From Stylophora pistillata (Eukaryota), in assembly GCF_002571385.2 (NCBI RefSeq), contig NW_019217855.1, positions 507,927 through 571,926 on the forward strand: a stretch of DNA of 64,000 bases, read 5' to 3'. Positions 38,736-39,988 of the stretch are shown piece by piece; the stretch's first letter is position 1, and each line of letters opens with the position of its first letter. The notes under the pieces were generated by a model. It was not told the DNA's origin, did no database searches, and saw only the letters and a list, made by a program, of their open reading frames with translations. The translations under genes and the position numbers were made by a program.

Positions 38736-39988
38736 ATGGATCTTCACACCACATTTCTGTATATGTCAGTGTTTATGGTGGTGAGTTCGGCATATCGTCT
38801 GAGCCGCTTCCAGAGTCACAAATACGAACGAGATCATTGGGAGAGTGAAGAAAATCCTGAACGCGAATTTCTATATCAAAAACTCGGGTAAGACATTTTC
38901 GACTAAACATTTATCGTACGTGTTTGTCGGAATCCCATCGACATTTAGCTCTCTCCTCCAAGATTCGTTGTGTTGACTACTTGATTCGAAAATTCAGATA
39001 ACAGGTTGTTTTGCTACATTCTGTTTGCCCTCTACTTTCGGCTTTCTCTTCTCATTGTAGCACGTCGTGAATAAATTAAATAAAATATTTTCCTTTTTGT
39101 AGTTTCTTTACATGTAGACTGAGACAATTTCAAATTTTCTTGGGAAAATATTTTCCCATAGTTTCTCTCTTCGTAGAATCCTGCTGAATAGCTTTTAAAC
39201 CAAGATGATTGTGACGCTACGATTTCATTTTGATATAAATTAAGACAATCAGTAACAAGGAGTGTCCAGTGATACGAAAATATTCTTATTTCCAAACCGA
39301 GAGAGATTAGAGTCTGTAGCGAACTTGCATGGTAGGTGAGGAAGTATCATTCAAGTACGAGGATGTTTAAAAAGCAAAAAAGAAAAAAAAATGGAAGAGT
39401 TTTAAAAAACAAAACTGGTAATTGTAGAATTGCGAAGTTTCTGTTAATTCCATATAGGAACATAACATCATCCTACCACTTTGAATGAAAATTTCAGCAA
39501 TTCTCAAAAAATTCGAGTACTGCAGGTTGAATTACCAAGGAGCTAATATTTCTGTACCTTACCGTACCCTACGTACCGTAGGATTAGTCTTCTTTTCCTA
39601 ACTCCCGCGGGTCAGAAACCTGGAAAGGTACTGCGTTGTATCTTTACAAAAATATTAAAGTTGTGTGTATTCCAGAGTGAAAAAGAAATGACTCAAAATA
39701 TATAACGTAAGATTACATCTTTGTCATACTCGTAGGATATTAAATTACAATGCGCTGGAGAGTCCACAAGCCACGCCTCCCCCGCCACGCCCATACGTGG
39801 GACCCAAGAATGGAAAGTACAAATACAAGTACAAGAAGAAAAGGCCCAATAGACGGCGACCAGAAGAATCTTGTGAATCGGAGTCAGATGACGAAAAAGG
39901 AAGTGTGGAGATGGAGAGGAAGATATTGTCTGATGTAATGCGAGCGCCCTCTGACGGGCGGATTCTTCAATGGGAAGACGATGCTTAG
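38736..39988 (+). CDS. Orphan secreted precursor protein, 134 aa, 2 exons (signal peptide, acidic pro-region, Pro-rich and Lys/Tyr-rich core, acidic tail)
   Basis: Exon 1 38736-38887 (MDLHTTFLYMSVFMVVSSA-YRLSR...QKL, GG|gtaag) joins exon 2 39736-39988 (tag|G) in phase 2, continuing into the frame of ORF 39797-39988. Confidence 0.75.

What the first reader, a model, noticed from the sequence alone, without database searches (positions are those of the whole stretch)
38736..39988. Orphan secreted precursor with Pro-rich PRPY peptide and KYKYKYKKKR block: candidate new antimicrobial, neuro- or adhesive peptide
Spliced product: MDLHTTFLYMSVFMVVSSA|YRLSRFQSHKYERDHWESEENPEREFLYQKLGILNYNALESPQATPPPPRPYVGPKNGKYKYKYKKKRPNRRRPEESCESESDDEKGSVEMERKILSDVMRAPSDGRILQWEDDA. 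Seen: a signal-peptide-like N-terminus, a strongly cationic core between two acidic segments, and basic cleavage sites. Known: acidic pro-regions mask cationic defence peptides. PRP motifs typify proline-rich antimicrobials (drosocin, pyrrhocoricin). Cnidarian neuropeptides often start with pyroGlu after X-Pro spacers and end in G-K amidation signals (here pQATPPPPRPYVGPKN-amide is possible). Lys/Tyr pairs typify DOPA adhesives. I do not recognise any known family.
Basis: partly seen in the sequence, partly recalled or inferred. Interest (0 to 1): 0.75.

Follow-up and report, generated by a model that had tools for sequence, protein, structure and literature searches.

The report
Robust-coral secreted disordered peptide family
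This is a real, spliced, single-copy coral gene, shared by three families of stony corals and matching no catalogued protein family; its small, predicted-unfolded product is likely secreted and likely acts whole as a local signal, while the special motifs that first drew attention occur only in one coral family.

Summary
The gene is real. The GT-AG intron (38888-39735) is spliced in contigs of 3 of 4 runs from three studies, and the 134-aa product is NCBI's uncharacterised Stylophora pistillata LOC111325472. It is single-copy. Orthologues occur in Pocillopora, Desmophyllum and Oculina, all robust corals. No Pfam, PDB or Atlas match was found. Orthologues keep the signal-like start, an N-terminal YRL, a W..E.P..F segment, PRPYV(N/G)P...KY, a K/R block and a short acidic tail. 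The amidation glycine and the KY repeat occur in 2 of 5 full-length lineages (both Pocilloporidae), the pyroGlu glutamine in 3 of 5. Fifteen of 23 invariant residues lie outside the PRPY core, and their clustering is not significant (p=0.07). Best reading (0.35): an unfolded ~80-residue secreted ligand acting whole. Rivals: non-lytic defence peptide (0.25), matrix or granule protein (0.2). Amidated neuropeptide and DOPA adhesive are disfavoured. It is an undescribed family of a common kind, and its function is untested.

The parts
38428..38440 (+). Maf/CNC/AP-1-type palindrome (12 of 13 bases of the recalled MARE consensus), about 300 bp before the ATG; candidate regulatory site, noticed post hoc
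   Evidence: 1 match in 64 kb at up to 1 mismatch, 0.05 expected, 5 of 100 shuffles reach 1; the exact 12-mer occurs 43 times in 398 Mb against 30 for the backwards control; the upstream stretch has no other copy found
38656..38696 (+). TATA-like (38656-38663) and initiator-like (38691-38696) words; weak candidate core promoter
   Evidence: seen in sequence; contigs of two studies begin at 38702 and 38705, a third at 38575; contigs cannot show a start
38736..38887 (+). coding exon 1 (residues 1-51)
   Evidence: three unnamed relatives are called as ORFs that end at the same glycine
38736..38792 (+). predicted signal peptide, residues 1-19, cleavage likely before Y20
   Evidence: hydrophobic core and small -3/-1 residues in 8 of 8 lineages; F13, V16, S18, A19 invariant in 5 of 5 full-length lineages
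38793..38822 (+). conserved basic N-terminus of the mature chain, YRL(S/N)R
   Evidence: Y20, R21, L22, R24 invariant columns in alignment A3; net +2 to +4
38823..38887 (+). acidic segment with invariant W35, E39, P41, F45, G51 and a short predicted helix (41-49)
   Evidence: helix in both low-confidence models
38888..39735 (+). 848-nt GT-AG intron, phase 2
   Evidence: joint in 3 of 4 contig runs
39736..39988 (+). coding exon 2 (residues 51-134 and stop)
39785..39820 (+). family core PRPYV(N/G)P-x-x-x-KY, residues 68-79
   Evidence: 8 of 12 positions invariant in 5 of 5 lineages; 76% mean pairwise identity
39815..39832 (+). KY repeat: a 6-nt unit three times; likely a pocilloporid expansion of one ancestral KY
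   Evidence: codons; one KY unit in Desmophyllum, Oculina and the unnamed cluster; 2 of 15 listed Pocillopora-cluster members have N for Y79
39833..39862 (+). K/R block ending in Pro (K85, P88, R91 invariant); likely polyanion-binding
39863..39895 (+). short Ser/Glu/Asp-rich segment; at or near the C-terminus in non-pocilloporid members
   Evidence: S99 and E100 invariant
39896..39985 (+). pocilloporid-only C-terminal extension, weakly constrained
   Evidence: absent in Desmophyllum and the unnamed cluster, 3 residues in Oculina; its last residues are read in different frames in Stylophora and Pocillopora; both non-synonymous variants seen lie here, both variants upstream are synonymous
39989..40424 (+). 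3' UTR, at least to 40368-40424; ATTAAA at 40352; + strand reads go on weakly to about 40780
   Evidence: contigs break at a poly-C tract near 40424

Best explanation
This is a transcribed, single-copy gene of robust stony corals whose product is likely exported, trimmed of a 19-residue signal peptide and likely acts whole as an unfolded ~80-residue local ligand. Shown: splicing, conservation across three coral families, no conserved cysteine, and a kept order of charge blocks (+, -, neutral, +, -). Predicted: no stable fold. Inferred: the invariant residues spread along the chain (YRL start; W, E, P, F, G; PRPYV-x-P...KY) form short contact motifs for a specific coral partner such as a receptor or extracellular enzyme. 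Inferred: the K/R block holds the protein on sulfated glycans, mucus or cell surfaces near the secreting cell, so that it works at short range like a cytokine or non-amidated peptide hormone. Weakly inferred: a bZIP (Maf/CNC/AP-1) site drives it in a restricted cell type or under stress.
For: Invariant residues number 23 of 85 mature positions, 15 outside the 68-79 core, and the best 12-residue window is not significantly clustered (shuffle p=0.07; 0.16 and 0.23 for 8 and 6 residues), so constraint covers the whole chain. No processing or amidation signal around the core is kept by all 5 full-length lineages. Single copy in the genome with two different queries. Low bulk RNA depth: 0-8 over exon 2 from 1.4-1.9 Gb read, about 1-5 reads per kb per million by my arithmetic, symbiont reads included. 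AlphaFold2 pTM 0.20 and 0.25, with only the signal helix and helix 41-49. The cationic segment is not amphipathic (hydrophobic fraction 0.17-0.30, moment 0.12-0.27). Present in Desmophyllum, which has no algal symbionts (recalled), so not tied to symbiosis.
Against: No receptor, partner, cell type or peptide has been observed; every functional step is inference. The core is still the best-kept segment (76% against 43-49% for residues 30-61 and 56% for the signal peptide), which also fits a released peptide. The test has little power: 5 lineages, two of them one family. Low bulk depth comes from three raw runs of unknown tissue and says nothing on larvae or rare cells. The models rest on 13-14 sequences, so a fold cannot be excluded. 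Matrix, mucus and granule proteins can show the same traits.
Confidence: 0.35

Rival explanations
1. Precursor of a cysteine-free, non-lytic host-defence peptide that works like insect proline-rich antimicrobials: acidic flanks mask a PRP/Lys/Arg segment that, once released, would enter bacteria and bind an internal target such as the ribosome or DnaK.
For: Residues 62-93 carry +12, +11, +9, +9 and +4, between flanks of -2 to -5 and -2 to -7, in 5 of 5 lineages. PRPYV is invariant. The segment is not amphipathic, as expected of non-lytic peptides. E-(S/T)-P before the core in 4 of 5 could serve acidic cleavage and dipeptidyl trimming (mechanism recalled). A stress-type bZIP site lies upstream.
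Against: Only one PRP per protein; Pro is 25% of the segment in pocilloporids but 14-20% elsewhere. Charge falls to +4, and the whole mature chain to pI 5.6, in the unnamed cluster. No conserved convertase site; basic runs end in Pro. Single copy. No Pfam match among 14 members and no PDB peptide match at E<=10 (PDB chains under 20 residues are not held).
Confidence: 0.25
2. A structural or packaging protein of secretory granules, mucus, cnidocyte capsules or skeletal matrix: a polyampholyte that condenses with polyanions through its K/R block and aromatic residues and binds calcium or mineral through its acidic tail.
For: Predicted disorder, alternating charge blocks and spaced aromatic residues. 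The acidic Ser-rich end is kept in 5 of 5 lineages. All named hosts are skeleton-forming corals. Atlas feature neighbours include secreted disordered proteins such as osteoregulin (score 0.78, within the range of shuffled sequences).
Against: Low bulk RNA depth. Not acid-rich overall (mature pI 8.0-9.9 in 4 of 5). No S-x-E site is kept in the tail (none at all in Desmophyllum and Oculina). No tandem repeats. No named hit in complex corals, which also calcify.
Confidence: 0.2
3. Amidated neuropeptide precursor giving the pyroGlu...PKN-amide peptide proposed by the first reader, or an N-terminal YRL...R-amide.
For: Stylophora and Pocillopora have E-(S/T)-P-Q before and G-K after the core. Desmophyllum, Oculina and one unnamed exon-1 ORF have R-G-K after the N-terminal YRL segment. 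LPRP in three lineages recalls RPamide peptides (recalled).
Against: G77 is present in 2 of 5 lineages, Q62 in 3 of 5, and 1 of 15 listed Pocillopora-cluster members has R62. The N-terminal G-K is present in 3 of 8 lineages and absent from this gene. PRP is followed by Y, never G, in 5 of 5. No site is shared by all.
Confidence: 0.08
4. DOPA-type adhesive or larval attachment protein using Lys/Tyr pairs.
For: KYKYKY block with 7 KY/YK pairs in Stylophora and 5 in Pocillopora.
Against: 1-2 pairs in the other three lineages; Tyr is 4-7% of the mature chain, well under mussel foot proteins (recalled as roughly 10-30%); the block is a 6-nt slippage-type repeat and is polymorphic in the Pocillopora cluster.
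Confidence: 0.05

Closest known systems
Taxon-restricted small secreted proteins of cnidarians; this very protein is NCBI XP_022785018.1 / LOC111325472, 'uncharacterized'
   Same: Signal-like start, short, no Pfam domain, limited to one clade; already gene-called in Stylophora, Pocillopora (RMX49679.1), Desmophyllum (KAJ7384393.1) and Oculina (KAL9955752.1).
   Different: No description as a family was found: 0 papers for ten accessions or tags and no coral paper listed for seven motif strings. Supplements and subscription papers were not searched.
Insect proline-rich antimicrobial peptides (drosocin, pyrrhocoricin, oncocin; features recalled)
   Same: Cys-free, cationic, non-amphipathic segment with a PRP next to a Tyr, inside a secreted precursor.
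   Different: One PRP only, Pro 14-25%, Lys/Asn-rich rather than Arg-rich, no conserved furin site, conserved flanks, single copy, no profile match.
Cnidarian amidated neuropeptide precursors, RPamide and peptides directly behind the signal (features recalled; survey PMC7523074 seen as search listing and start of abstract only)
   Same: Signal-like start, acidic spacers, X-Pro stretch, LPRP in three lineages, conserved tripeptide right after the signal.
   Different: No conserved Gly-Lys/Arg; PRP is followed by Tyr; no repeated peptide copies.
Described coral antimicrobial peptides: damicornin, AmAMP1 (recalled); digitiferin (PMC12496222, listing and start of abstract only)
   Same: Signal plus acidic segment ahead of a cationic segment.
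   Different: Damicornin and AmAMP1 are disulfide-bonded C-terminal peptides (recalled); this family has 0-1 Cys, none conserved, and an acidic C-terminus.

Membership tests
Amidated cnidarian neuropeptide precursor | signal peptide | tested here: met
   hydropathy and -3/-1 rule in 8 of 8 lineages; SignalP not available; the Desmophyllum model has only 8 residues before YRL, likely a late start call
Amidated cnidarian neuropeptide precursor | conserved Gly-Lys/Arg behind the conserved peptide | tested here: not met
   G77 in 2 of 5 lineages, both Pocilloporidae; N-terminal G-K in 3 of 8, not in this gene
Amidated cnidarian neuropeptide precursor | conserved N-terminal protection (pyroGlu or X-Pro) | tested here: inconclusive
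   E59 in 5 of 5, P61 in 4 of 5, Q62 in 3 of 5
RPamide neuropeptides | peptide ends in Arg-Pro followed by Gly and a basic residue | tested here: not met
   PRP followed by Y in 5 of 5
Amidated cnidarian neuropeptide precursor | neuronal expression and mature peptide by mass spectrometry | not testable with these tools
Proline-rich antimicrobial peptides | cationic, Cys-free, non-amphipathic segment | tested here: met
   +4 to +12, no Cys in the segment, low hydrophobic moment
Proline-rich antimicrobial peptides | Pro about a quarter or more with repeated PRP motifs | tested here: not met
   one PRP in each; Pro 25, 25, 20, 18, 14%
Proline-rich antimicrobial peptides | conserved convertase site releasing the peptide | tested here: not met
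   no dibasic or RxxR site shared on the N-terminal side of the core; basic runs behind it end in Pro
Proline-rich antimicrobial peptides | sequence match to a described family | tested here: not met
   Pfam 0 families for P0001 and P0002, two chance hits among 14 members; PDB two chance hits at E 1.3 and 1.6
Proline-rich antimicrobial peptides | bacterial killing through ribosome or DnaK | not testable with these tools
   needs assay
DOPA adhesive proteins | high Tyr content and conserved or repeated Lys-Tyr units | tested here: not met
   Tyr 4-7%; repeat only in Pocilloporidae
DOPA adhesive proteins | Tyr hydroxylation | not testable with these tools
   needs chemistry
Disulfide-bonded coral defence peptides and SCRiP-type peptides | conserved cysteine scaffold | tested here: not met
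   1 Cys in the Stylophora mature chain, 0 in the other seven lineages
Acid-rich skeletal matrix proteins (CARP/SAARP-like, SIBLING-like) | strongly acidic chain with conserved S-x-E phosphorylation sites | tested here: not met
   mature pI 8.0, 9.5, 9.7, 9.9, 5.6; no shared S-x-E

The most novel reading that the evidence does not exclude
The first cnidarian cysteine-free, proline-motif defence peptide: robust corals evolved, independently of insects and mammals, a secreted PRPY/Lys peptide under Maf/Nrf-type control that enters bacteria and blocks an internal target, shaping the coral microbiome.
Probability: 0.12. Interest if true: 0.75.

Novelty: new member of a known kind. Interest (0 to 1): 0.33.

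Why it matters
Few coral secreted signals or defence peptides have been characterised. This family is short enough to synthesise, is single-copy, and lies in species with single-cell atlases, so one table look-up and a peptide assay could place it. As a ligand it would be a non-amidated signal missed by neuropeptide screens that look for Gly-Lys/Arg. As a defence peptide it would be a convergent proline-motif antimicrobial. As it stands it is one of many unnamed secreted coral proteins, and the comparison removes its most striking motifs.

Tried and rejected
Artefact or chance ORF: rejected by the spliced contigs and orthologues. Paralogue family: none found with two protein queries; one extra hit at E 2.65, 29% identity, was set aside. 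Pfam, PDB sequence and ESM Atlas searches gave nothing above chance (best Atlas scores 0.82 and 0.84). The metagenome scan gave 594 pattern matches and no confirmed relative. Two AlphaFold2 models were too poor for a fold search, so none was run. No complex was predicted because no partner is known. A recalled link between Maf and Stylophora immune cells was not borne out: the whole word occurs 0 times in the main text of PMC8162421, so it is not used. No named hit came from Acropora, Porites or anemones, but the profile searches need shared 5-residue words, the full HMMER scan used one sequence, and the unnamed hits have unknown hosts, so absence is not shown. Synteny and dN/dS could not be tested: no orthologue DNA was obtainable. 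Earlier scan notes returned nothing. The paper reader was closed, so no paper or supplement was read.

Full report
Observation. Exon 1 (38736-38887) and exon 2 (39736-39988) flank an 848-nt GT-AG intron and give the stated 134-aa protein. Contigs from 3 of 4 runs, of three studies, skip exactly this intron; one of the three is on record as polyA RNA and two are RNA by guess, and the fourth run shows no joint. Of three raw RNA runs none reached the reporting threshold for the joint, but X24 covers both exons, shows no depth in bins wholly inside the intron, and has its first mates mostly on the minus strand, as a + strand RNA would give; a further run spans the locus unspliced. The protein is identical to NCBI's 'uncharacterized protein LOC111325472' of Stylophora pistillata. 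It is single-copy by searches with itself and with the Oculina orthologue.

Relatives. A 22-member cluster, 15 members listed, holds Pocillopora damicornis and P. meandrina proteins at 73-75% identity. A full HMMER scan of 1.84 billion representatives gave 4 proteins at E<=0.001: the query, a Desmophyllum pertusum protein (53%, E 2e-16) and two unnamed 50-51-aa ORFs. A profile of these found 8 proteins among 4,679 candidates, adding Oculina patagonica (48%), an unnamed six-member cluster (41%) and a third short ORF. The three short ORFs end at the glycine where this gene's unspliced exon 1 runs into a stop, so the intron position is likely conserved. The three hosts looked up all fall in suborder Vacatina, in three families; Pocillopora is in the same family as Stylophora (recalled). 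Pfam, PDB sequences and the ESM Atlas give nothing above chance.

What is conserved. All 8 lineages have a hydrophobic stretch and small -3/-1 residues before YRL. Among the 5 full-length lineages, 23 of 85 positions in residues 20-104 are invariant: Y20, R21, L22, R24, W35, E39, P41, F45, G51, E59, eight in the core PRPYV(N/G)P-x-x-x-KY, then K85, P88, R91, S99, E100. The core is the best-kept segment (76%, against 61% for the N-terminal decamer, 56% for the signal, 43-49% for residues 30-61), but its clustering is not significant against shuffled columns (p=0.07). The order of charges is kept in 5 of 5, though its size varies (+4 to +12 for residues 62-93). No cysteine is conserved. Two AlphaFold2 runs on 13-14 sequences give pTM 0.20 and 0.25, with the signal helix and one short helix.

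What is not conserved. The amidation glycine G77 is in 2 of 5 lineages, both Pocilloporidae, and Q62 in 3 of 5. The KY block is a 6-nt unit repeated three times; other families have one KY, and 2 of 15 listed Pocillopora-cluster members change Y79 to N. The last 30 residues exist only in pocilloporids, and their end is read in different frames in the two genera. Of four coding variants in RNA contigs, the two before residue 104 are silent and the two in the extension change a residue; four is too few to test.

Context. An ELMO-domain gene lies upstream on the same strand and a weakly matching GH20 hexosaminidase gene converges from downstream; neither suggests a shared function. A near-perfect Maf-type palindrome sits at 38428-38440: 1 match in the window against 0.05 expected, and the exact 12-mer occurs 43 times in 398 Mb against 30 for a control. 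I noticed it by eye and could not test its conservation, so it is a lead only. Bulk depth in three raw runs is low, about 1-5 reads per kb per million by my arithmetic.

Mechanism. Constraint along the whole mature chain, no shared cleavage or amidation signal, single copy and low bulk level fit best a secreted, unfolded ligand that acts whole, binding a specific coral partner through short motifs and staying near its source through the K/R block (0.35). All of these functional steps are inferred. A non-lytic defence peptide released from acidic flanks is the main rival (0.25): charge pattern and PRPY fit, while the single PRP, the variable charge and the lack of a release site do not. A matrix, mucus or granule protein is third (0.2). 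The amidated neuropeptide (0.08) and DOPA adhesive (0.05) rest on motifs limited to one coral family; a function gained only in Pocilloporidae is not excluded. About 0.07 is left for other roles, such as gamete recognition.

Known families and print. It fails at least one defining feature of each family tested, so it is filed under none. Definitions of insect proline-rich antimicrobials, RPamides, mussel adhesives and damicornin are recalled, not read. Ten accessions or tags gave 0 papers. Seven motif strings gave 1 and 14 papers, none of those listed on corals by title. All papers named were seen only as search listings with the start of the abstract. The paper reader was closed, so supplements of the Stylophora atlas, skeletal and venom proteomes and larval proteomes, which may list this accession, were not seen; the claim 'undescribed' is bounded by that.

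Verdict. Interest 0.33.

Noticed in passing
window 33016-34828 (+), probably from 29747: Exons of an ELMO/CED-12 domain gene upstream on the same strand (Pfam PF04727, best E 3.6e-17); a possible synteny anchor.
   Followed up: partly
window about 41000-51500 (-): Multi-exon gene with weak GH20 hexosaminidase matches (E 0.0076 and 0.088, below cut-off). Its 3' end converges on this gene, and opposite-strand reads overlap near 40570-40890 in raw RNA runs.
   Followed up: partly
window 46175-47059 and 47058-47942: An 885-bp perfectly identical tandem copy that includes a likely exon of the hexosaminidase-like gene; assembly artefact or very recent duplication.
   Followed up: no
window 41646-42651: Near-identical segments on both sides of the N at 41896, with a short low-complexity repeat between them; likely a mis-joined gap.
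   Followed up: no
window 38428-38440: Near-perfect Maf-type palindrome about 300 bp upstream of the start codon; conservation in other corals untested.
   Followed up: partly
window 39960-40010: The Pocillopora C-terminal residues GKTML are encoded here in another frame, so a small indel separates the two genera's C-termini.
   Followed up: yes
proteins P0017, P0018, P0020: Three relatives have R-G-K after the N-terminal YRL segment, which could give an amidated 8-9-mer in those species only.
   Followed up: partly
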